This document shows, one piece after another, positions 18,782-50,401 of a stretch of 64,000 bases of DNA. Location of the stretch: assembly GCF_058153355.1 (NCBI RefSeq), contig NZ_CM177019.1; one strand, written 5' to 3'. Numbering within the stretch: position 1 is the stretch's first letter; every line of letters begins with the position of its first letter. Made by a program: the position numbers and the translations under genes. The notes under the pieces are model-generated. The model made no database searches. It was not told the DNA's origin and saw only the letters and a program-made list of their open reading frames with translations.

Positions 18782-18792
18782 GCTCATTGAGC
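18782..18792. repeat. IS4 target-site duplication, left copy (gctcattgagc)
   Basis: identical 11-mer at 20219..20229. Confidence 0.7.
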
Positions 18793-20218
18793 TAATGCCG
18801 ATCAGTTAAGGATCAGTTGACCGATCCAGTGGCTGTGTAAGAATCCGGAAACGCTCACTTGTTTCCGGATTTTTTTATGCACATTGGACAGGCTCTTGAT
18901 CTGGTATCCCGTTACGATTCTCTGCGTAACCCACTGACTTCTCTGGGGGATTACCTCGACCCCGAACTCATCTCTCGTTGCCTTGCCGAATCAGGTACTG
19001 TAACGCTACGCAAGCGCCGTCTTCCCCTCGAAATGATGGTCTGGTGTATTGTTGGCATGGCGCTTGAGCGTAAAGAACCTCTTCACCAGATTGTGAATCG
19101 CCTGGACATCATGCTGCCGGGCAATCGCCCCTTCGTTGCCCCCAGTGCCGTTATTCAGGCCCGCCAGCGCCTGGGAAGTGAGGCTGTCCGCCGCGTGTTC
19201 ACGAAAACAGCGCAGCTCTGGCATAACGCCACGCCGCATCCGCACTGGTGCGGCCTGACCCTGCTGGCCATCGATGGTGTGTTCTGGCGCACACCGGATA
19301 CACCAGAGAACGATGCAGCCTTCCCCCGCCAGACACATGCCGGGAACCCGGCGCTCTACCCGCAGGTCAAAATGGTCTGCCAGATGGAACTGACCAGCCA
19401 TCTGCTGACGGCTGCAGCCTTCGGCACGATGAAGAACAGCGAAAATGAGCTTGCTGAGCAACTTATAGAACAAACCGGCGATAACACTCTGACGTTAATG
19501 GATAAAGGTTATTACTCACTGGGACTGTTAAATGCCTGGAGCCTGGCGGGAGAACACCGCCACTGGATGATACCTCTCAGAAAGGGAGCGCAATATGAAG
19601 AGATCAGAAAACTGGGTAAAGGCGATCATCTGGTGAAGCTGAAAACCAGCCCGCAGGCACGAAAAAAGTGGCCGGGACTGGGAAATGAAGTGACAGCCCG
19701 CCTGCTGACCGTGACGCGCAAAGGAAAAGTCTGCCATCTGCTGACGTCGATGACGGACGCCATGCGCTTCCCCGGAGGAGAAATGGCGGATCTGTACAGT
19801 CATCGCTGGGAAATCGAACTGGGATACAGGGAGATAAAACAGACGATGCAACTGAGCAGGCTGACGCTGAGAAGTAAAAAGCCGGAGCTTGTGGAGCAAG
19901 AGCTGTGGGGTGTCTTACTGGCTTATAATCTGGTGAGATATCAGATGATTAAAATGGCGGAACATCTGAAAGGTTACTGGCCGAATCAACTGAGTTTCTC
20001 AGAATCATGCGGAATGGTGATGAGAATGCTGATGACATTGCAGGGCGCTTCACCGGGACGTATACCGGAGCTGATGCGCGATCTTGCAAGTATGGGACAA
20101 CTTGTGAAATTACCGACAGGAAGGGAAAGGGCCTTCCCGAGAGTGGTAAAGGAGAGGCCCTGGAAATACCCCACAGCCCCGAAAAAGAGCCAGTCAGTTG
20201 CTTAACTGACTGGCATTA
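18793..20218 (+). mobile_element. insertion sequence IS4, complete (1426 bp)
   Basis: terminal inverted repeats taatgccgatcagttaag (left) and cttaactgactggcatta (right); encodes full-length transposase. Confidence 0.88.
18877..20205 (+). CDS. insG: IS4 transposase InsG
   Basis: 442-aa product from ATG at 18877 ([14 protein letters not shown]...). Confidence 0.88.
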
Positions 20219-20229
20219 GCTCATTGAGC
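20219..20229. repeat. IS4 target-site duplication, right copy (gctcattgagc)
   Basis: identical to 18782..18792. Confidence 0.7.
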
Positions 20230-36605: not shown

Positions 36606-37001
<396 letters not shown>

Positions 37002-37180
37002 TCAAAATGTGTGATGGAAATCTCATAATTTTGTCACTTTTTGTCAACGAATCTTTTTTGTGAGAAATCGCAGGAAGAGGTGTTTTTTTACTTGAGGAAT
37101 ATCTCAAAGCGAGCCATATTTGATGAGATCGATAGTGACTAAATCGCTTCAGTTTCACAACTAACAGAATAAAAAAACGG

Positions 37181-37193
37181 CAGCTCAAGGCTG
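37181..37193. repeat. target-site duplication of IS4 derivative, left copy (cagctcaaggctg)
   Basis: identical 13-mer at 38003..38015. Confidence 0.7.
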
Positions 37194-38002
37194 TAATGCC
37201 AGTCAGTTAAGCAACTGACTGGCTCTTTTTCGGGGCTGTGGGGTATTTCCAGGGCCTCTCCTTTACCACTCTCGGGAAGGCCCTTTCCCTTCTTGTCGGT
37301 AATTTCACTGGTTGTCCCATACTTGCAAGATCGCGCATCAGCTCCGGTATACGTCCCGGTGAAGCGCATGGCGTCCGTCATCGACGTCAGCAGATGGCTG
37401 GTCAGTTCCATCTGGCAGACCATTTTGACCTGCGGGTAGAGCGCCGGGTTCTCGGCATGTGTCTGGCGGGGGAAGGCTGCATCGTTCTCTGGTGTATCCG
37501 GTGTGCGCCAGAACACACCATCGATGGCCAGCAGGGTCAGGCCGCACCAGTGCGGATGCGGCGTGGCGTTATGCCAGAGCTGCGCTGTTTTCGTGAACAC
37601 GCGGCGGACAGCCTCACTTCCCAGGCGCTGGCGGGCCTGAATAACGGCACTGGGGGCAACGAAGGGGCGATTGCCCGGCAGCATGATGTCCAGGCGATTC
37701 ACAATCTGGTGAAGAGGTTCTTTACGCTCAAGCGCCATGCCAACAATACACCAGACCATCATTTCGAGGGGAAGACGGCGCTTGCGTAGCGTTACAGTAC
37801 CTGATTCGGCAAGGCAACGAGAGATGAGTTCGGGGTCGAGGTAATCCCCCAGAGAAGTCAGTGGGTTACGCAGAGAATCGTAACGGGATACCAGATCAAG
37901 AGCCTGTCCAATGTGCATAAAAAAATCCGGAAACGAGTGAGCGTTTCCGGATTCTTACACAGGCACTGGATCGGTCAACTGATCCTTAACTGATCGGCAT
38001 TA
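37194..38002 (-). mobile_element. internally deleted IS4 derivative (809 bp) with both terminal inverted repeats intact; transposase truncated
   Basis: ends taatgccagtcagttaag and cttaactgatcggcatta; aligned to the full IS4 at 18793..20218 it lacks two internal segments. Confidence 0.8.
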
Positions 38003-38015
38003 CAGCTCAAGGCTG
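38003..38015. repeat. target-site duplication of IS4 derivative, right copy (cagctcaaggctg)
   Basis: identical to 37181..37193. Confidence 0.7.
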
Positions 38016-38038
38016 CCGTTTTGTGTTTCAGGTTTCTG

Positions 38039-38776
38039 TTATGTATTGCTGCTGTTTGCGGCGATGATTTTCGCTACTTTTTCAGCTTGCGCATTCATCT
38101 GCATCTGACGGTATGCATTTTCCATCAGCGGCAGCGCATCACGCGTAGCCTGGGTATCCGGATAGTCGCGCAACATGCCTTCTACGCGGTTAACGACAGC
38201 AACCCATGCACCACGTTCTGTATAATACTCGGCAACGGAGTATTCATATTTCGCCAGACGATCTTTCAGGAATACCAGACGTTTGGTGGCATCGGTGGTG
38301 TACTGACTGTTCGGATAGCCGCGCACCAGTTTGGAAAAGTCACTAAACGCAGCTCGTGCATGTTGAGGATCGCGATCGCTACGGTCAACGCCAAAGAACC
38401 CTTGCAGCGCACTGTCATCCAGCGCCATATTGGTCAGGCCACGCATGTACATGACATAATCGATATTCGGATGGGTCGGGTTAAGGCGAATAAAACGATC
38501 GATGGCAGCCTGTGCTAACGGCAAATCGGCGTTTTTATAGTAGGCGTAGATGAGATCCAGCTGCACCTGCTGCGAATACGGACCAAACGGATAGCGATTA
38601 TCTAACGCTTCCAGTTGCGTTATTGCCTGTCTCCAGTTACCGTCCTGCAGCTTTTGTTGTGCAGTCGCGTAAATTTCATTTGGCGGATTATCAGGTACTT
38701 CTTCCTTTGACCCCGAGCAACCCGCCAAAAACAGGCTTAGTGTGGCGGCTGCCACCAGATATTTCATGCGCGTCAT
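38039..38776 (-). CDS. bamD: outer membrane assembly lipoprotein BamD (YfiO)
   Basis: 245-aa ORF with lipobox LAGCS; TPR-like. Confidence 0.92.
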
Positions 38777-38910
38777 GACGTTTTGACTTTCCTCAAAATG
38801 TAATACGGGAGATTCTCTGTTCCTGCTCCCGGTTAAGACCAGCTACAATAGCACACTATATTAAACGGCAAAGCCGTAAAACCCCAACGATAAACGAAGA
38901 AGCAGTATAT

Positions 38911-39891
38911 ATGGCACAACGAGTACAGCTCACTGCAACGGTGTCCGAAAACCAACTCGGTCAACGCTTAGATCAGGCTTTGGCCGAAATGTTCCCGGAT
39001 TATTCACGTTCGCGAATAAAAGAATGGATCCTCGACCAGCGCGTGCTGGTTAACGGCAAAGTTTGTGATAAGCCGAAAGAAAAAGTATTGGGTGGCGAGC
39101 AGGTGGCCATCAACGCTGAGATTGAAGAAGAAGCGCGTTTTGAACCGCAGGATATCCCGCTGGATATCGTCTATGAAGATGAAGATATCATCGTCATTAA
39201 TAAACCACGCGACCTGGTGGTACATCCTGGCGCGGGTAACCCGGATGGCACGGTACTGAATGCGTTGCTTCATTATTATCCGCCCATTGCCGATGTACCG
39301 CGTGCGGGCATCGTCCATCGTCTGGATAAAGACACCACCGGCCTGATGGTTGTGGCAAAAACCGTTCCGGCTCAGACGCGTTTAGTCGAATCTTTGCAAC
39401 GGCGTGAAATTACTCGTGAGTATGAAGCGGTGGCAATTGGTCATATGACCGCTGGCGGTACAGTAGATGAACCAATCAGCCGCCACCCGACCAAACGTAC
39501 TCACATGGCGGTGCATCCGATGGGTAAACCGGCGGTCACTCACTATCGCATCATGGAACACTTCCGTGTGCACACGCGTCTGCGGTTGCGTCTGGAAACC
39601 GGACGTACGCACCAGATCCGCGTGCATATGGCCCATATCACTCATCCGCTCGTGGGCGATCCGGTTTATGGCGGCCGTCCGCGTCCGCCAAAAGGTGCTT
39701 CGGAAGCGTTTATCTCCACGCTGCGTAAGTTTGACCGCCAGGCGCTTCATGCAACCATGCTGCGTCTTTATCACCCGATCTCCGGCATCGAAATGGAATG
39801 GCATGCGCCTATTCCACAAGATATGGTGGAGCTGATTGAGGTGATGCGCGCCGATTTCGAAGAGCATAAGGATGAAGTGGACTGGTTATGA
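38911..39891 (+). CDS. rluD: 23S rRNA pseudouridine synthase RluD
   Basis: 326-aa ORF; S4 domain plus HRLDKDTTG motif. Confidence 0.92.
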   Translation: MAQRVQLTATVSENQLGQRLDQALAEMFPDYSRSRIKEWILDQRVLVNGKVCDKPKEKVLGGEQVAINAEIEEEARFEPQDIPLDIVYEDEDIIVINKPRDLVVHPGAGNPDGTVLNALLHYYPPIADVPRAGIVHRLDKDTTGLMVVAKTVPAQTRLVESLQRREITREYEAVAIGHMTAGGTVDEPISRHPTKRTHMAVHPMGKPAVTHYRIMEHFRVHTRLRLRLETGRTHQIRVHMAHITHPLVGDPVYGGRPRPPKGASEAFISTLRKFDRQALHATMLRLYHPISGIEMEWHAPIPQDMVELIEVMRADFEEHKDEVDWL

Positions 39892-40619
39892 GTAAGCTGA
39901 TTGTCCCGCAGTGGCCGCTGCCAAAAGGTGTTGCGGCCTGTAGCTCTACCCGTATCGGCGGCGTGAGCTTGCCGCCGTATGACTCGCTCAACCTCGGTGC
40001 CCATTGTGGCGATAACCCGGATCACGTCGAGGAAAATCGTAAGCGACTTTTTGCTGCGGGCAATTTGCCTTCAAAACCGGTCTGGCTTGAGCAGGTACAC
40101 GGCAAAGATGTGCTTAAGCTTACTGGCGAACCTTATGCCTCAAAACGAGCGGATGCCTCTTATAGCAATACGCCCGGCACGGTTTGCGCCGTGATGACGG
40201 CTGACTGCCTCCCTGTGCTGTTTTGCAATCGAGCGGGAACGGAAGTCGCCGCCGCTCATGCTGGCTGGCGTGGACTGTGCGCAGGCGTGCTGGAAGAGAC
40301 GGTTTCCTGTTTTGCTGATAATCCCGAAAACATTCTCGCCTGGTTAGGGCCGGCAATTGGTCCACGCGCGTTTGAAGTGGGAGCGGAGGTTCGCGAGGCG
40401 TTTATGGCAGTAGACGCCAAAGCGAGTGCAGCTTTCATTCAGCATGGAGATAAATATCTGGCGGATATTTATCAGCTTGCCCGGCAGCGTCTGGCGAACG
40501 TTGGTGTTGAGCAAATTTTCGGCGGTGATCGCTGTACATACACAGAAAATGAGACATTCTTCTCTTATCGTCGCGACAAGACCACTGGTCGTATGGCAAG
40601 TTTCATTTGGCTGATATAA
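39888..40619 (+). CDS. yfiH: purine nucleoside phosphorylase / polyphenol oxidase YfiH
   Basis: 243-aa ORF overlapping the rluD stop by 4 bp. Confidence 0.85.
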   Translation: MSKLIVPQWPLPKGVAACSSTRIGGVSLPPYDSLNLGAHCGDNPDHVEENRKRLFAAGNLPSKPVWLEQVHGKDVLKLTGEPYASKRADASYSNTPGTVCAVMTADCLPVLFCNRAGTEVAAAHAGWRGLCAGVLEETVSCFADNPENILAWLGPAIGPRAFEVGAEVREAFMAVDAKASAAFIQHGDKYLADIYQLARQRLANVGVEQIFGGDRCTYTENETFFSYRRDKTTGRMASFIWLI

Positions 40620-40748
40620 CCTAAAGAATCAAGACGATCCGGTACGCGTGATTTTCTTTTCACATTAATCTGGTCAATAACCTTGAATAATTGAGGGATG
40701 ACCTCATTTAATCTCCAGTAGCAACTTTGATCCGTTATGGGAGGAGTT

Positions 40749-43322
40749 ATGCGTCTGGATCGTCTTACTAATAAATTCCAGCTTGCTCTTGCCGATGCCC
40801 AATCACTTGCACTCGGGCACGACAACCAATTCATCGAACCACTTCATTTAATGAGCGCCCTGCTGAATCAGGAAGGGGGTTCGGTTAGTCCTTTATTAAC
40901 ATCCGCCGGCATCAATGCTGGTCAGTTGCGCACAGATATCAATCAGGCATTAAATCGTTTACCGCAGGTTGAAGGCACTGGCGGTGATGTCCAGCCCTCA
41001 CAGGATCTGGTGCGCGTTCTTAATCTTTGCGACAAGCTGGCGCAAAAACGTGGTGATAACTTTATCTCGTCAGAACTGTTCGTTCTGGCGGCACTTGAGT
41101 CTCGCGGCACGCTGGCCGACATCCTGAAAGCAGCAGGGGCGACCACCGCCAACATTACTCAAGCGATTGAACAAATGCGTGGAGGTGAAAGCGTGAACGA
41201 TCAAGGAGCTGAAGACCAACGTCAGGCTTTGAAAAAATACACCATCGACCTCACCGAACGAGCCGAACAAGGCAAACTCGATCCGGTGATTGGCCGTGAT
41301 GAAGAAATTCGCCGTACCATTCAGGTACTGCAACGTCGTACTAAAAATAACCCGGTGCTGATTGGTGAACCAGGCGTTGGTAAAACAGCCATCGTTGAAG
41401 GTCTGGCTCAGCGTATTATCAATGGCGAGGTACCGGAAGGGCTGAAAGGCCGCCGCGTACTGGCGCTGGATATGGGCGCGCTGGTGGCCGGGGCGAAATA
41501 TCGCGGTGAGTTTGAAGAACGTTTAAAAGGCGTGCTTAACGATCTCGCCAAACAGGAAGGCAACGTCATCCTGTTTATCGACGAATTACATACCATGGTC
41601 GGTGCGGGTAAAGCCGATGGCGCAATGGACGCCGGCAACATGCTGAAACCGGCGCTGGCGCGTGGTGAATTGCACTGCGTAGGTGCCACGACACTGGACG
41701 AATATCGCCAGTACATCGAAAAAGATGCTGCGCTGGAACGTCGTTTCCAGAAAGTGTTTGTTGCCGAGCCAACCGTGGAAGACACCATTGCTATTCTGCG
41801 TGGCCTGAAAGAACGTTACGAGCTGCACCACCATGTGCAAATTACTGACCCGGCAATTGTTGCAGCGGCGACGTTGTCTCATCGCTACATTGCGGACCGT
41901 CAGCTGCCGGATAAAGCCATCGACCTGATCGATGAAGCAGCATCCAGCATTCGTATGCAGATTGACTCAAAACCAGAGGAACTCGATCGACTCGATCGTC
42001 GTATCATCCAGCTCAAACTGGAACAACAGGCGTTAATGAAAGAGTCTGATGAAGCCAGTAAAAAACGCCTGGATATGCTTAACGAAGAACTGAGCGACAA
42101 AGAACGTCAGTACTCCGAGTTAGAAGAAGAGTGGAAAGCAGAGAAAGCCTCGCTCTCTGGTACGCAGACCATTAAAGCGGAACTGGAACAGGCGAAAATC
42201 GCTATTGAACAGGCTCGCCGTGTGGGTGACTTGGCGCGGATGTCTGAACTGCAATACGGCAAAATCCCGGAACTGGAAAAGCAACTGGAAGCCGCAACGC
42301 AGCTCGAAGGCAAAACTATGCGTCTGTTGCGTAATAAAGTGACCGACGCCGAAATTGCTGAAGTGCTGGCGCGTTGGACGGGGATTCCGGTTTCTCGCAT
42401 GATGGAAAGCGAGCGCGAAAAACTGCTGCGTATGGAGCAAGAGCTGCACCATCGCGTTATTGGTCAGAACGAAGCGGTTGATGCGGTATCTAACGCTATT
42501 CGTCGTAGCCGTGCGGGGCTTGCTGACCCGAATCGCCCGATTGGTTCATTCCTGTTCCTCGGCCCAACGGGTGTGGGGAAAACTGAGCTTTGTAAGGCGC
42601 TGGCGAACTTTATGTTTGATAGCGACGAGGCGATGGTCCGTATCGATATGTCCGAGTTTATGGAGAAACACTCGGTGTCTCGTCTGGTTGGTGCGCCTCC
42701 GGGATATGTCGGTTATGAAGAAGGTGGCTACCTGACCGAAGCAGTGCGTCGTCGTCCGTATTCCGTCATCCTGCTGGATGAAGTGGAAAAAGCGCATCCG
42801 GATGTCTTCAACATTCTGTTGCAGGTACTGGATGATGGGCGTCTGACTGACGGGCAGGGGAGAACGGTCGACTTCCGTAATACGGTTGTCATTATGACCT
42901 CTAACCTCGGTTCCGATTTGATTCAGGAACGCTTCGGTGAACTGGATTATGCGCACATGAAAGAGCTGGTACTCGGTGTGGTAAGCCATAACTTCCGTCC
43001 GGAATTCATTAACCGTATCGATGAAGTGGTGGTCTTCCATCCGCTGGGTGAACAGCACATTGCGTCGATTGCGCAGATTCAGTTGAAACGTCTGTACAAA
43101 CGTCTGGAAGAACGTGGTTATGAAATCCACATTTCTGACGAGGCGCTGAAACTGCTGAGCGAGAACGGTTACGATCCGGTCTATGGTGCACGTCCTCTGA
43201 AACGTGCTATCCAGCAGCAGATCGAAAACCCGCTGGCACAGCAAATACTGTCTGGTGAATTGGTTCCGGGTAAAGTTATTCGCCTGGAGGTTAATGAAGA
43301 CAGGATTGTCGCCGTCCAGTAA
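40749..43322 (+). CDS. clpB: chaperone disaggregase ClpB
   Basis: 857-aa product from [11 protein letters not shown]...; two AAA+ modules ([16 protein letters not shown]). Confidence 0.93.
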
Positions 43323-43326
43323 TGAT

Positions 43327-43353
43327 AAAACGAGTCCTTCGGGGCTCGTTTTT
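43327..43353 (+). terminator. intrinsic terminator after clpB
   Basis: aaacgagtccttcggggctcgttttt hairpin plus T-run. Confidence 0.5.
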
Positions 43354-43436
43354 GTCTATAAATTAGACGGAAAAGACTATATTCAAGATGTTTTGCCTGA
43401 AAAATGAGCGAACGATAAAGTTTTTATATTTTTCGC

Positions 43437-43464
43437 TTGTCAGGCCGGAATAACTCCCTATAAT
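43437..43464 (+). promoter_or_regulatory. rrn P1 promoter (-35 ttgtca, -10 tataat) with upstream AT-rich UP-like element
   Basis: ttgtca at 43437..43442, tataat at 43459..43464. Confidence 0.6.
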
Positions 43465-43554
43465 GCGCCACCACTGACACGGAACAACGGCAAACACGCC
43501 GCCGGGTCAGCGGGGTTCTCCTGAGAATCTCGACAGAGAAAAGCAAAAAAATGC

Positions 43555-43582
43555 TTGACTCTGTAGCGGGAAAGCGTATTAT
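43555..43582 (+). promoter_or_regulatory. rrn P2 promoter (-35 ttgact, -10 tattat)
   Basis: ttgact at 43555..43560, tattat at 43577..43582. Confidence 0.55.
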
Positions 43583-43620
43583 GCACACCCCGCGCCGCTG
43601 AGAAAAAGCGAAGCGGCACT

Positions 43621-43632
43621 GCTCTTTAACAA
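43621..43632 (+). promoter_or_regulatory. rrn leader boxA antitermination element (gctctttaacaa)
   Basis: exact boxA consensus read directly. Confidence 0.6.
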
Positions 43633-43763
43633 TTTATCAGACAATCTGTGTGGGCACTCGAAGATACGGATTCTTAACGTCGCAAGACGAAAAATGAATA
43701 CCAAGTCTCAAGAGTGAACACGTAATTCATTACGAAGTTTAATTCTTTGAGCATCAAACTTTT

Positions 43764-45305
<1,542 letters not shown>

Positions 45306-45390
45306 CCTTAAAGAACTGTTCTTTGCAGTGCTCACACAGATTGTCTGATAGAAAGTGAAAAGCAAGGCGTCTTGCGAAGCAGACTGATAC

Positions 45391-45466
45391 GTCCCCTTCG
45401 TCTAGAGGCCCAGGACACCGCCCTTTCACGGCGGTAACAGGGGTTCGAATCCCCTAGGGGACGCCA
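45391..45466 (+). tRNA. gltW: tRNA-Glu (spacer tRNA)
   Basis: gtccccttcgtctagaggcccaggacaccgccctttcacggcggtaacaggggttcgaatcccctaggggacgcca; 76 nt. Confidence 0.92.
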
Positions 45467-45660
45467 CTTGCTGGTTTGTGAGTGAAAGTCGCCGACCTTA
45501 ATATCGTTAAAGATGACTTACGAGTCATGTTTAAGATATTTGCTCTTTAAAAATCTGGATCAAGCTGAAAATTGAAACACTGAACAACGAAAGTTGTTCG
45601 TGAGTCTCTCAAATTTTCGCAACACGATGATGAATCGAAAGAAACATCTTCGGGTTGTGA

Positions 45661-48565
<2,905 letters not shown>

Positions 48566-48658
48566 ACAACGCCGAAGGTGTTTTGGCGGATTGAGAGAAG
48601 ATTTTCAGCCTGATACAGATTAAATCAGAACGCAGAAGCGGTCTGATGAAACAGAATT

Positions 48659-48778
48659 TGCCTGGCGGCCTTAGCGCGGTGGTCCCACCTGACCCCATGC
48701 CGAACTCAGAAGTGAAACGCCGTAGCGCCGATGGTAGTGTGGGGTCTCCCCATGCGAGAGTAGGGAACTGCCAGGCAT
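48659..48778 (+). rRNA. rrfG: 5S ribosomal RNA
   Basis: TGCCTGGCGGCCTTAGCGCGGTGGTCCCACCTGACCCCATGCC ... GAACTGCCAGGCAT; 120 nt. Confidence 0.93.
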
Positions 48779-48790
48779 CAAATTAAGCAG

Positions 48791-48817
48791 AAGGCCATCC
48801 GTCAGGATGGCCTTTTT
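48791..48817 (+). terminator. rrn operon intrinsic terminator
   Basis: aaggccatccgtcaggatggccttttt. Confidence 0.65.
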
Positions 48818-48835
48818 GCGCTGGTGCGGAAAAAA

Positions 48836-48875
48836 TGCCGGATGCGACGCTGGCTGCATCTTATCCGTCCTACGC
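48836..48875. repeat. REP-like palindromic element
   Basis: gccggatgcgacgctggctgcatcttatccgtcctac resembles REP consensus. Confidence 0.35.
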
Positions 48876-49102
48876 TCCCACATAAGCCAGATTCAACAGC
48901 GAATACGGCTTCCCCAACTTGCCCACTTCTATACGTCCTCCATACCTGAATTCTATACTGAAGATCCTCAATAACTATTCCCCTGCTAACTAAATTCATG
49001 GTTAAGGTTGCATAATTACATGCAACAAATGTATAACATTTTCTTTGCTAAAAAATAACGATAACCGATAAAGCATCGGATTACGGCAGGAGACATAATG
49101 GC

Positions 49103-50401
49103 ATGGCTGAAAGTACTGTAACGGCAGACAGCAAACTGACAAGTAGTGATACTCGTCGCCGCATTTGGGCAATTGTGGGGGCCTCTTCAGGTAATTTGGT
49201 CGAGTGGTTCGATTTCTATGTCTACTCGTTCTGTTCACTCTACTTCGCCCACATCTTCTTCCCTTCCGGGAACACGACGACTCAACTACTGCAAACAGCA
49301 GGTGTTTTTGCTGCGGGATTTCTGATGCGCCCAATAGGCGGTTGGCTATTTGGCCGCATAGCCGATAAACATGGTCGCAAAAAATCGATGCTATTATCGG
49401 TGTGTATGATGTGTTTCGGCTCACTGGTTATCGCCTGTTTGCCAGGCTACGAAACAATCGGTACCTGGGCTCCGGCATTATTGCTTCTCGCTCGTTTATT
49501 CCAGGGATTATCCGTTGGCGGAGAATATGGCACCAGCGCCACCTATATGAGTGAAGTTGCCGTTGAAGGGCGCAAAGGTTTTTACGCATCATTTCAGTAT
49601 GTGACGTTGATCGGCGGGCAACTGCTAGCTCTACTGGTTGTCGTGGTTTTACAACACACCATGGAAGACGCTGCACTCAGAGAGTGGGGATGGCGTATTC
49701 CTTTCGCGTTAGGAGCTGTGTTAGCTGTTGTGGCGTTGTGGTTACGTCGTCAGTTAGATGAAACTTCACAACAAGAAACACGCGCTTTAAAAGAAGCTGG
49801 ATCTCTAAAAGGATTATGGCGCAATCGCCGTGCATTCATCATGGTTCTCGGTTTTACCGCTGCGGGCTCCCTTTGTTTCTATACCTTCACCACTTATATG
49901 CAGAAGTATCTGGTAAATACTGCGGGAATGCATGCCAACGTGGCGAGTGGCATTATGACTGCCGCATTGTTTGTATTCATGCTTATTCAACCACTTATTG
50001 GCGTGCTGTCGGATAAGATTGGTCGTCGTACCTCAATGTTATGTTTCGGTTCTCTGGCAACCATTTTTACCGTTCCTATTCTCTCAGCATTGCAGAACGT
50101 TTCTTCGCCTTATGCCGCTTTTGGTCTAGTGATGTGCGCCCTGCTGATAGTGAGTTTTTATACTTCAATCAGTGGAATACTGAAGGCTGAAATGTTCCCG
50201 GCCCAGGTTCGCGCATTAGGCGTTGGTCTGTCATATGCGGTCGCCAATGCTATATTTGGTGGTTCGGCGGAGTACGTAGCGTTGTCACTGAAATCAATAG
50301 GAATGGAAACAGCCTTCTTCTGGTATGTGACCTTGATGGCCGTGGTGGCGTTTCTGGTTTCACTAACATTGCACCGTAAAGGAAAAGGGATGCGTCTTTA
50401 G
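49103..50401 (+). CDS. kgtP: alpha-ketoglutarate permease KgtP (MFS)
   Basis: 432-aa [34 protein letters not shown]... Confidence 0.92.

What the first reader, a model, noticed from the sequence alone, without database searches (positions are those of the whole stretch)
37181..38015. 809-bp internally deleted IS4 derivative with intact ends and a 13-bp target duplication
Seen: both IS4 terminal repeats are present and flanked by cagctcaaggctg direct repeats, but alignment to the full copy at 18793..20218 shows two internal deletions of roughly 340 and 280 bp. Each is bounded by short direct repeats in the parent sequence (gccatctgctgacg, gcgcttc), leaving a truncated, frameshifted transposase. 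The restored target, aaaaaaacggcagctcaaggctgccgtttt, is again a palindromic hairpin with a T-run, downstream of bamD and ~240 bp upstream of raiA. Inference: a non-autonomous element that could be mobilised in trans by the intact IS4, and that shows the same palindrome target preference.
Basis: seen in the sequence. Interest (0 to 1): 0.6.

Follow-up and report, generated by a model that had tools for sequence, protein, structure and literature searches.

The report
Decayed, immobile IS4 copy behind bamD
This is a dead, internally deleted copy of the well-known E. coli insertion sequence IS4, stuck in the terminator hairpin after bamD and inherited with its neighbouring DNA, so it is an ordinary transposon fossil rather than an active miniature element.

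Summary
Window 37194..38002 (- strand) is an 809-bp IS4 derivative with both terminal repeats and a 13-bp target duplication. It has two internal deletions of 336 and 281 bp, bounded by 14-bp and 7-bp direct repeats. The insertion splits the bamD terminator hairpin 247 bp upstream of raiA.

Among 5,426 complete E. coli genomes:
- The 809-bp form is in 18, always once and always at this site, and none of the 18 has any other IS4 sequence.
- The E2348/69 lineage (4 genomes) has a 1,089-bp intermediate at the same site with only the 336-bp deletion.
- About 313 genomes have a full canonical IS4 at the same position.

The relic carries an older SNP signature, so the intact IS4 at 18793..20218 is not its parent. 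The adjacent 12 kb of the window is closest to the 809-bp carriers.

Best reading: an old IS4 insertion into a known type of IS4 target decayed in place by short-repeat deletion and is inherited with its flanks. There is no sign of mobilisation in trans.

One oddity remains. The same 281-bp deletion junction also occurs in a second relic between adhE and tdk. Gene conversion between copies is the likeliest cause.

The parts
37194..38002 (-). 809-bp IS4 deletion derivative (IS4 positions 1-604, 941-971 and 1253-1426)
   Evidence: Global alignment to IS4 at 18793..20218: three blocks, 6 mismatches.
37985..38002 (-). Left terminal inverted repeat (IRL) TAATGCCGATCAGTTAAG
37194..37211 (+). Right terminal inverted repeat (IRR) TAATGCCAGTCAGTTAAG. 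It is followed inward by an 11-bp-stem hairpin (37198..37223).
37181..37193 (.). Target-site duplication copy, raiA side (CAGCTCAAGGCTG)
38003..38015 (.). Target-site duplication copy, bamD side (CAGCTCAAGGCTG)
37385..37398 (-). Junction of the 336-bp deletion: single remaining copy of the 14-bp repeat GCCATCTGCTGACG
   Evidence: It is the longest direct repeat in IS4.
37361..37367 (-). Junction of the 281-bp deletion: single remaining copy of the 7-bp repeat GCGCTTC
   Evidence: The identical junction occurs in the adhE-tdk relic of other strains.
37139..37918 (-). Truncated transposase ORF, 259 aa. It comprises InsG residues 1-173 (one substitution, G156E), the in-frame 112-codon gap, about 10 further InsG residues, then a frameshifted tail that runs out through IRR into flanking DNA.
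   Evidence: Pfam finds only Nterm_IS4 (E = 2.8e-33); the DDE domain is not significant.
37170..38022 (-). Split bamD intrinsic terminator. The halves AAAACGGCAGC..CTTGA..GCTGCCGTTTTTTT are separated by the element.
   Evidence: The restored sequence folds at -18.6 kcal/mol (z = -4.6); the bamD-side junction no longer folds better than shuffles. The K-12 empty site confirms the restored sequence.
18793..20218 (+). Intact canonical IS4 (InsG 442 aa) in the yfjF/bamE convergent terminator, with an 11-bp duplication GCTCATTGAGC at 18782-18792 and 20219-20229. It served as the comparison copy, is not the parent, and lies in inverted orientation to the relic 17 kb away.

Best explanation
The element is a fossil of an old IS4 insertion.

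Insertion. An IS4 of an older sequence lineage, most likely a full-length autonomous copy, inserted into the intrinsic terminator hairpin just downstream of bamD. This kind of site (A-run, GC-rich stem-loop, T-run) is what IS4 habitually chooses. The staggered cuts inside the stem produced the 13-bp duplication.

Decay. The copy then decayed where it sat. First, 336 bp were lost between the two copies of the longest direct repeat in IS4 (14 bp). This is the type of event expected from replication slippage or short-homology recombination, and it removed catalytic D209. Later, 281 bp were lost between 7-bp repeats, removing E314 and the YREK motif and shifting the frame.

Inheritance. The 809-bp remnant has since been passed on passively with its flanking chromosomal segment.

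Current properties. It encodes no transposase and shows no sign of having moved. Its plausible present-day effects are loss of the bamD terminator hairpin on the bamD side, which would let transcription run into the element, and service as a stretch of IS4 homology for recombination or gene conversion with intact IS4 copies.

Shown versus inferred. Shown: the structure, the junctions, the population distribution and the existence of the intermediate. Inferred: the order and mechanism of the deletions, the full length of the precursor at insertion, and the transcriptional consequences.
For: - Structure and junctions.
- Catalytic residues removed. Only Nterm_IS4 is left.
- Single locus. The 336-bp junction is found in 22 of 5,426 genomes, one place each. 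Exactly 18 genomes have the 809-bp form joined to the raiA flank, and each has no other IS4 match. The fetched loci L002, L006, L007, L009 and L010 are all bamD-raiA.
- Intermediate. E2348/69 has a 1,089-bp copy at the same position, with the same duplication and orientation. It has the 336-bp deletion but not the 281-bp one, and shares SNPs 68C, 89T, 109T, 1310C and 1311A.
- Older lineage. The relics share 68C/89T/102C/109T, which are absent from canonical full IS4 copies, including those at this very site in SCU-116 and RM14723.
- Inheritance with flanks. For the adjacent 12 kb, most of the best matches (98.8-99.2%) are 809-bp carriers, 16 of the top 18.
- Age. The 809-bp copies differ from each other by about 1%, and one has acquired an IS200/IS605 insertion.
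- Target type. Five independent IS4 sites are all A-run/hairpin/T-run terminators with 11-14-bp duplications of inner stem plus loop. This agrees with the 10-13-bp repeats and strong target-arm specificity reported for the IS4 subgroup (PMC2266710).
- The 14-bp repeat is the longest direct repeat in IS4.
Against: - The same 281-bp junction occurs in another IS4 relic between adhE and tdk. Purely local, independent decay therefore does not explain everything: either gene conversion, recurrence, or movement of a 281-bp-deleted derivative is also needed.
- The 809-bp carriers now lack the adhE-tdk relic that would be the conversion donor.
- The source genome of the window is not in the collections searched, so its other IS4-related copies could not be inspected for second-site 809-bp elements.
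- No transcription or transposition data exist for this element.
Confidence: 0.8

Rival explanations
1. One reading: the 809-bp element is a non-autonomous, MITE-like transposon that reached the bamD terminator as a short element, mobilised in trans by InsG from an intact IS4 such as the copy at 18793.
For: Both terminal repeats are intact and a perfect 13-bp duplication flanks it. An intact IS4 lies 17 kb away. IS4 is active in E. coli K-12 (8 new insertions in mutation-accumulation lines; PMC5009759).
Against: No second-site copy exists in 5,426 genomes. A 336-bp-deletion-only intermediate occupies the same site. All 18 E. coli carriers lack any IS4 that could supply transposase. The SNP signature differs from the resident intact copy. 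From my own knowledge, not tested here: transposases of IS4-family elements such as IS10 and IS50 act preferentially in cis.
Confidence: 0.06
2. A 281-bp-deleted IS4 derivative (1,145 bp, non-autonomous) was once mobile in trans and colonised both the adhE and the bamD terminators. The 336-bp deletion followed at bamD-raiA, and the E2348/69 copy regained the 281 bp by gene conversion from a full IS4.
For: An identical 281-bp junction is found at two unlinked loci. The 7-bp repeat is only one of 77 direct-repeat pairs of 7 bp or more in IS4, so independent recurrence is not favoured. The junction was not seen outside those two loci in any copy fetched. The two relics share SNPs 68C, 89T, 102C, 109T and 1311A.
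Against: It needs both trans-mobilisation and a restoring gene conversion, whereas conversion alone already explains the data. Every junction-bearing copy fetched (7 at adhE-tdk, 6 at bamD-raiA) lies at one of these two loci, among 621 stringent matches. The restored segment in E2348/69 is itself diverged (1137A, 1199G, a 1-bp deletion).
Confidence: 0.12
3. The remnant is retained because the truncated InsG (Nterm_IS4 DNA-binding domain without catalytic core) acts as an inhibitor of IS4 transposition, in analogy to the Tn5 inhibitor protein.
For: The 259-aa ORF is open in all six 809-bp copies examined and keeps the complete Nterm_IS4 domain. None of the 18 carriers has IS4, against 37% of all genomes.
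Against: The window itself carries the relic together with an intact IS4. Carriers are related, so 0 of 18 is not 18 independent observations. Many substitutions in the ORF are non-synonymous (H2L, S22F, P120L, G126S, G156E, A155T, N157T). One carrier has an IS200/IS605 element inserted between the IS4 promoter region and the ORF. With only about 10 substitutions, an open frame is expected by chance.
Confidence: 0.03

Closest known systems
IS4 of Escherichia coli (ISfinder IS4 family, IS4 subgroup; transposase InsG)
   Same: 99.3% identical over all retained blocks. Same 18-bp terminal repeats. A 13-bp duplication, within the 10-13 bp reported for the subgroup. Same kind of hairpin target (PMC2266710).
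   Different: It lacks 617 of 1,426 bp, including two of the three catalytic residues and the YREK motif. It belongs to an older sequence variant than the canonical active copies.
IS4 relic between adhE and tdk in E2348/69, RM14723, LF82 and many other E. coli (annotated 'IS4 family transposase, frameshifted')
   Same: Same old-lineage SNPs, the same 281-bp deletion junction, intact ends, and a 12-bp duplication of a terminator hairpin. It is fixed at one locus and single-copy.
   Different: Different locus. It has no 336-bp deletion and is 1,144-1,145 bp long. It is far more widespread: at least about 600 genomes by the stringent junction match. Up to 1,144 genomes hold some IS4 copy joined to the tdk-side flank; that count would also include any full-length IS4 at this site.
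ISZ / insZ pseudogene of E. coli K-12 (IS4-like)
   Same: A defective IS4-like element with IS4-like ends in a terminator hairpin (the adhE terminator). It gave no new insertions in K-12 mutation-accumulation lines, although IS4 itself moved 8 times (PMC5009759).
   Different: Its interior is not alignable to IS4 at the DNA level. It is a different element, not a deletion derivative of IS4.
Bacterial MITEs and IS-derived non-autonomous elements (for example MITEAba12)
   Same: Terminal repeats and a target duplication without a functional transposase.
   Different: MITEs are defined by multiple dispersed copies that show mobilisation. This element has one locus only, and at 809 bp it is larger than typical MITEs.

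Membership tests
IS4 (element IS4, IS4 family/IS4 subgroup) | Nucleotide identity to IS4 across the retained sequence | tested here: met
   803 of 809 positions are identical to the intact IS4 in the window.
IS4 (element IS4, IS4 family/IS4 subgroup) | Characteristic terminal inverted repeats (-AATR... ends) | tested here: met
   TAATGCCGATCAGTTAAG and TAATGCCAGTCAGTTAAG lie at the two ends. The subgroup end consensus is given in PMC2266710.
IS4 (element IS4, IS4 family/IS4 subgroup) | Target duplication of 10-13 bp | tested here: met
   A 13-bp perfect duplication. Other IS4 copies gave 11-14 bp.
IS4 (element IS4, IS4 family/IS4 subgroup) | Single ORF transposase with D(60-110)D(100-150)E and Y(2)R(3)E(6)K | tested here: not met
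   The intact copy has D133, D209, E314 and Y307/R310/E314/K321. The relic keeps only D133. Pfam detects only Nterm_IS4. It is therefore a defective member, that is, a pseudogene copy.
MITE / trans-mobilised non-autonomous IS derivative | Intact transposase-binding ends and a target duplication, with no functional transposase | tested here: met
MITE / trans-mobilised non-autonomous IS derivative | Several copies at different loci, or insertion polymorphism of the short form itself | tested here: not met
   22 genomes carry the 336-bp junction, one place each. The 18 copies of the 809-bp form all carry the raiA-side flank. All six of the 22 that were fetched (five 809-bp copies and the E2348/69 intermediate) lie between bamD and raiA.
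MITE / trans-mobilised non-autonomous IS derivative | Movement when the cognate transposase is supplied | not testable with these tools
   This needs a transposition assay with InsG in trans.
IS4 target class (intrinsic-terminator-like palindrome flanked by A and T runs) | A-run, GC-rich inverted repeat, T-run, with the duplication covering inner stem plus loop | tested here: met
   The restored bamD site, and the yfjF/bamE, adhE-tdk, crr-pdxK and rpsO-pnp sites, all fit, folding at -18.6 to -21.3 kcal/mol for the three hairpins folded alone (the longer restored contexts reach -36.8). The AAA-N20-TTT consensus attributed to Mayaux et al. 1984 is recalled from memory and could not be read here.

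The most novel reading that the evidence does not exclude
The identical 281-bp deletion junction in relics at two unlinked terminators (adhE-tdk and bamD-raiA) reflects past trans-mobilisation of a defective, 281-bp-deleted IS4. That would make it a natural non-autonomous IS4 derivative that spread between terminator hairpins before being frozen.
Probability: 0.12. Interest if true: 0.35.

Novelty: already known. Interest (0 to 1): 0.15.

Why it matters
The finding matters little on its own. Decayed IS copies are common, and RefSeq already annotates this one as a frameshifted IS4-family transposase pseudogene.

It has three modest uses:
- It is a clean natural series (full, 336-bp-deleted, 336+281-bp-deleted) showing stepwise IS decay at one site by short-repeat deletion.
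- It marks the bamD terminator as a recurrent IS4 target, occupied in 335 of 5,426 E. coli genomes. It shows that IS4 picks bidirectional intrinsic terminators, where insertions are tolerated.
- The relic still offers 604 + 174 bp of homology to active IS4 copies. In the window it lies inverted to an intact IS4 17 kb away. In Shigella sonnei, lineage-defining inversions that start at raiA and at yfjF are reported to be flanked by IS4-family transposases (PMC12795559). Such relics may therefore matter as recombination substrates and as stable lineage markers.

Tried and rejected
- Identifying the source genome. It is not among the 5,426 complete E. coli genomes (best 99.1-99.5%). An exact look-up of the 259-aa ORF found nothing. 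Two scans of the species-representative genome collection, one with the 281-bp junction and one with the IRR/flank junction, both returned nothing.
- A miscount. I first read 2,478 genomes with at least 80% coverage as carriers of the 281-bp junction. That was wrong, because overlapping partial matches to canonical IS4 inflate that count. The defensible figures are 620 genomes by the stringent junction match. The 1,144 genomes hold some IS4 copy joined to the tdk-side flank, which would also include any full-length IS4 there.
- Equating the adhE-tdk relic with K-12 insZ/ISZ. Alignment shows that ISZ shares only the first ~35 bp with IS4, so that identification was dropped.
- A plasmid-borne copy with the 281-bp junction looked like a third locus. 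It is a 542-kb record that carries the chromosomal adhE-tdk region.
- The old primary papers on IS4 target choice are not in the held library.
- I considered that the canonical full IS4 at bamD-raiA in other strains was the direct parent. This was rejected on SNP signature.
- Selection on the truncated ORF was considered but is not supported.

Full report
**1.

The reverse complement of window 37194..38002 (809 bp) aligns to the intact IS4 at 18793..20218 (1,426 bp) in three collinear blocks: IS4 1-604, 941-971 and 1253-1426. There are 6 mismatches in all.

- The gaps are 336 bp (605-940) and 281 bp (972-1252).
- Each junction can slide over a direct repeat present twice in the parent: 14 bp GCCATCTGCTGACG and 7 bp GCGCTTC.
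- The two 18-bp IS4 ends are intact, and the window holds only the four ends belonging to these two elements.
- The 13-bp duplication CAGCTCAAGGCTG flanks the element at 37181-37193 and 38003-38015.

**2. Context**

The local gene order is pheA (-), raiA 36606..36947 (-), the element, bamD 38039..38776 (-), rluD (+). The element lies 36 bp after the bamD stop codon and 247 bp before the raiA start codon.

Deleting the element and one duplication copy gives AAAACGGCAGCCTTGAGCTGCCGTTTTTTT on the bamD sense strand. This folds as a strong hairpin (-18.6 kcal/mol, z = -4.6). It equals the real empty site of K-12 MG1655 apart from one extra C in the loop and a few SNPs.

After insertion, the bamD-side junction no longer folds better than shuffled sequence. 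The whole ~225 bp upstream of raiA is left untouched, so I expect little effect on the raiA promoter (inference).

**3. Coding capacity**

InsG of the intact copy is 442 aa, with D133, D209, E314 and Y307/R310/E314/K321. This fits the family definition D(60-110)D(100-150)E plus Y(2)R(3)E(6)K (PMC2266710).

- The 336-bp deletion is in frame and removes residues 174-285, including D209.
- The 281-bp deletion removes residues 296-390, including E314 and the YREK motif, and shifts the frame.
- The remaining 259-aa ORF (37139..37918, -) runs out through the right end into flanking DNA.
- Pfam detects only Nterm_IS4 in it.

**4. Population evidence**

All counts refer to 5,426 complete E. coli genomes.

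| Form at bamD-raiA | Genomes | Source |
|---|---|---|
| Site occupied by any IS4-derived sequence | 335 | |
| Full canonical IS4, same position and orientation (checked in SCU-116 and RM14723) | ~313 | |
| 809-bp form joined to the raiA flank | 18 | |
| 1,089-bp intermediate, E2348/69 lineage | 4 | |

- SCU-116 has a 13-bp duplication. RM14723 has a 14-bp duplication in a target allele with an extra C. This implies at least two independent canonical insertions at the site.
- The 336-bp junction occurs in only 22 genomes, once each.
- None of the 18 genomes with the 809-bp form has any other IS4 match.
- The five 809-bp loci fetched are all bamD-raiA.
- The 1,089-bp copy in E2348/69 has the same duplication and orientation. 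It carries the 336-bp deletion but not the 281-bp one, and shares SNPs with the 809-bp form.
- By contrast, 2,011 genomes carry IS4 copies that retain the 972-1252 segment (4,128 places).

**5. The resident full copy is not the parent**

All the relics share 68C, and outside the window also 89T/102C/109T. Canonical copies lack these bases, including the full copies at this same site.

The window's relic has canonical bases at 89, 102 and 109 but keeps 40C, 68C and 551A. This looks like a gene-conversion patch copied from a resident intact IS4 (inference).

For the adjacent 12 kb (38016..50000), most of the best matches (98.8-99.2%) are 809-bp carriers, 16 of the top 18. The relic therefore travels with its chromosomal neighbourhood.

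The 809-bp copies differ among themselves by about 1%, and one has picked up an IS200/IS605 insertion. This suggests considerable age.

**6. Mechanism**

The most economical history has five steps:

1. An old-lineage IS4 inserted into the bamD terminator.
2. It lost 336 bp between the longest direct repeat in the element. That repeat is 14 bp; the next longest is 10 bp.
3. It then lost the 281 bp.
4. It was inherited passively thereafter.
5. Canonical IS4 later hit the same hairpin independently in other lineages.

The target preference is real and general. Five independent IS4 sites were examined: yfjF/bamE (seen in both orientations), bamD-raiA, adhE-tdk, crr-pdxK and rpsO-pnp. All are A-run/GC hairpin/T-run terminators, with 11-14-bp duplications of inner stem plus loop. 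This matches the 10-13-bp repeats and the 'spectacular' target-arm specificity reported for the IS4 subgroup (PMC2266710). It also matches the AAA-N20-TTT consensus, which I recall from Mayaux et al. 1984 but could not read here.

**7. An unexplained detail**

The same 281-bp junction occurs in a second relic, 1,144-1,145 bp long, inserted in the adhE terminator between adhE and tdk.

- All seven non-809 copies carrying that junction that I fetched are at adhE-tdk.
- With the E2348/69 intermediate, all four combinations of the two deletions exist.
- One of three things must therefore be true: one deletion was transferred by gene conversion, it recurred, or a 281-bp-deleted derivative once moved and was later repaired.
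- The 7-bp repeat is only one of 77 direct-repeat pairs of 7 bp or more in IS4, so recurrence is not favoured.
- Conversion is the simplest explanation. E2348/69 carries exactly the required pair of substrates, and the window shows a conversion patch.
- The weakness is that present-day 809-bp carriers lack the adhE-tdk relic.

**8. Comparison with known things**

This is a defective copy of IS4. RefSeq annotates it as 'IS4 family transposase, frameshifted'. It meets the structural criteria of a non-autonomous element but fails the criterion that defines MITE-like elements, namely dispersed copies.

K-12's ISZ shares the adhE terminator and has IS4-like ends, but it is a different element. It gave no new insertions in mutation-accumulation lines in which IS4 gave eight (PMC5009759).

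**9. Significance and verdict**

The relic (- strand) and the intact IS4 (+ strand) are inverted repeats 17 kb apart, sharing 604 + 174 bp. The window is collinear with K-12 here: raiA to bamE is 16.7 kb against 16.8 kb.

A Shigella sonnei study reports lineage-defining inversions beginning at raiA and at yfjF that are flanked by IS4-family transposases (PMC12795559). Relics of this kind may therefore act as recombination substrates. This is a lead and was not shown here.

The interpretation as a trans-mobilised mini-element is not supported. The feature is an ordinary, already annotated IS fossil of low interest.

Noticed in passing
L001 2425..3568 (E2348/69), L008 (RM14723), L013, L017-L020; compare window 37361..37367: A second IS4 relic (1,144-1,145 bp, 12-bp duplication CCCCTTCTGGGG) sits in the adhE terminator between adhE and tdk in many E. 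coli. It carries exactly the same 281-bp deletion junction as the window's relic. The E2348/69 copy at bamD-raiA, however, has only the 336-bp deletion. All four combinations of the two deletions therefore exist, which implies gene conversion, recurrence or past mobilisation.
   Followed up: partly
L012 (K-12 MG1655 1294426..1295405, ISZ/insZ): K-12's ISZ occupies the same adhE terminator hairpin. Its ends are IS4-like (CAATGCCGATCAGTTAAGGAT... and ...ACGGCATTG), but its interior does not align to IS4. The annotated right boundary seems a few bases short of the true end.
   Followed up: partly
window 18793..20218 versus L015 (MB31): The yfjF/bamE convergent terminator holds an intact IS4 in the window and in the opposite orientation in strain MB31. 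It is therefore an independent, recurrent target. Only 2 of 5,426 genomes share the window's arrangement.
   Followed up: partly
window 37894..37914 (IS4 positions 89-109 of the relic): The window's relic has the canonical IS4 bases at positions 89, 102 and 109, where every other relic examined (nine copies at two loci) departs from the canonical bases: T at 89, C (A in E2348/69) at 102, T at 109. The flanking old-lineage SNPs 40C, 68C and 551A are kept. This is probably a gene-conversion patch from a resident intact IS4.
   Followed up: partly
L007 1293..2004 (E. coli AST85): In one carrier an IS200/IS605-family element (tnpA) has inserted into the relic between IS4 positions 81 and 82, just upstream of the truncated ORF.
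   Followed up: no
L006 and L007, bamD-side flank: In EC42405 and AST85 the bamD-side copy of the duplication is CAGCCCTTGAGCTG (14 bp) and the raiA-side copy is 13 bp. The sequence between bamD and the hairpin differs from other strains (GATTGAAATAAAAAAACGG versus CCTGAAACACAAAACGG). This suggests recombination in the flank after insertion.
   Followed up: no
window 18793..20218 (+) and 37194..38002 (-): The intact IS4 and the relic are inverted relative to each other, 17 kb apart. A Shigella sonnei study (PMC12795559) lists lineage-specific inversions that begin at raiA and at yfjF and are flanked by IS4-family transposases. The window itself is collinear with K-12.
   Followed up: partly
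L006 3470..5054 and L010 2526..3321: In EC42405 and MFDS1022581 the genes downstream of raiA are a DNA methyltransferase and an ATP-dependent nuclease (or a Com-family regulator) instead of pheL-pheA. This indicates an island insertion or replacement next to the relic.
   Followed up: no
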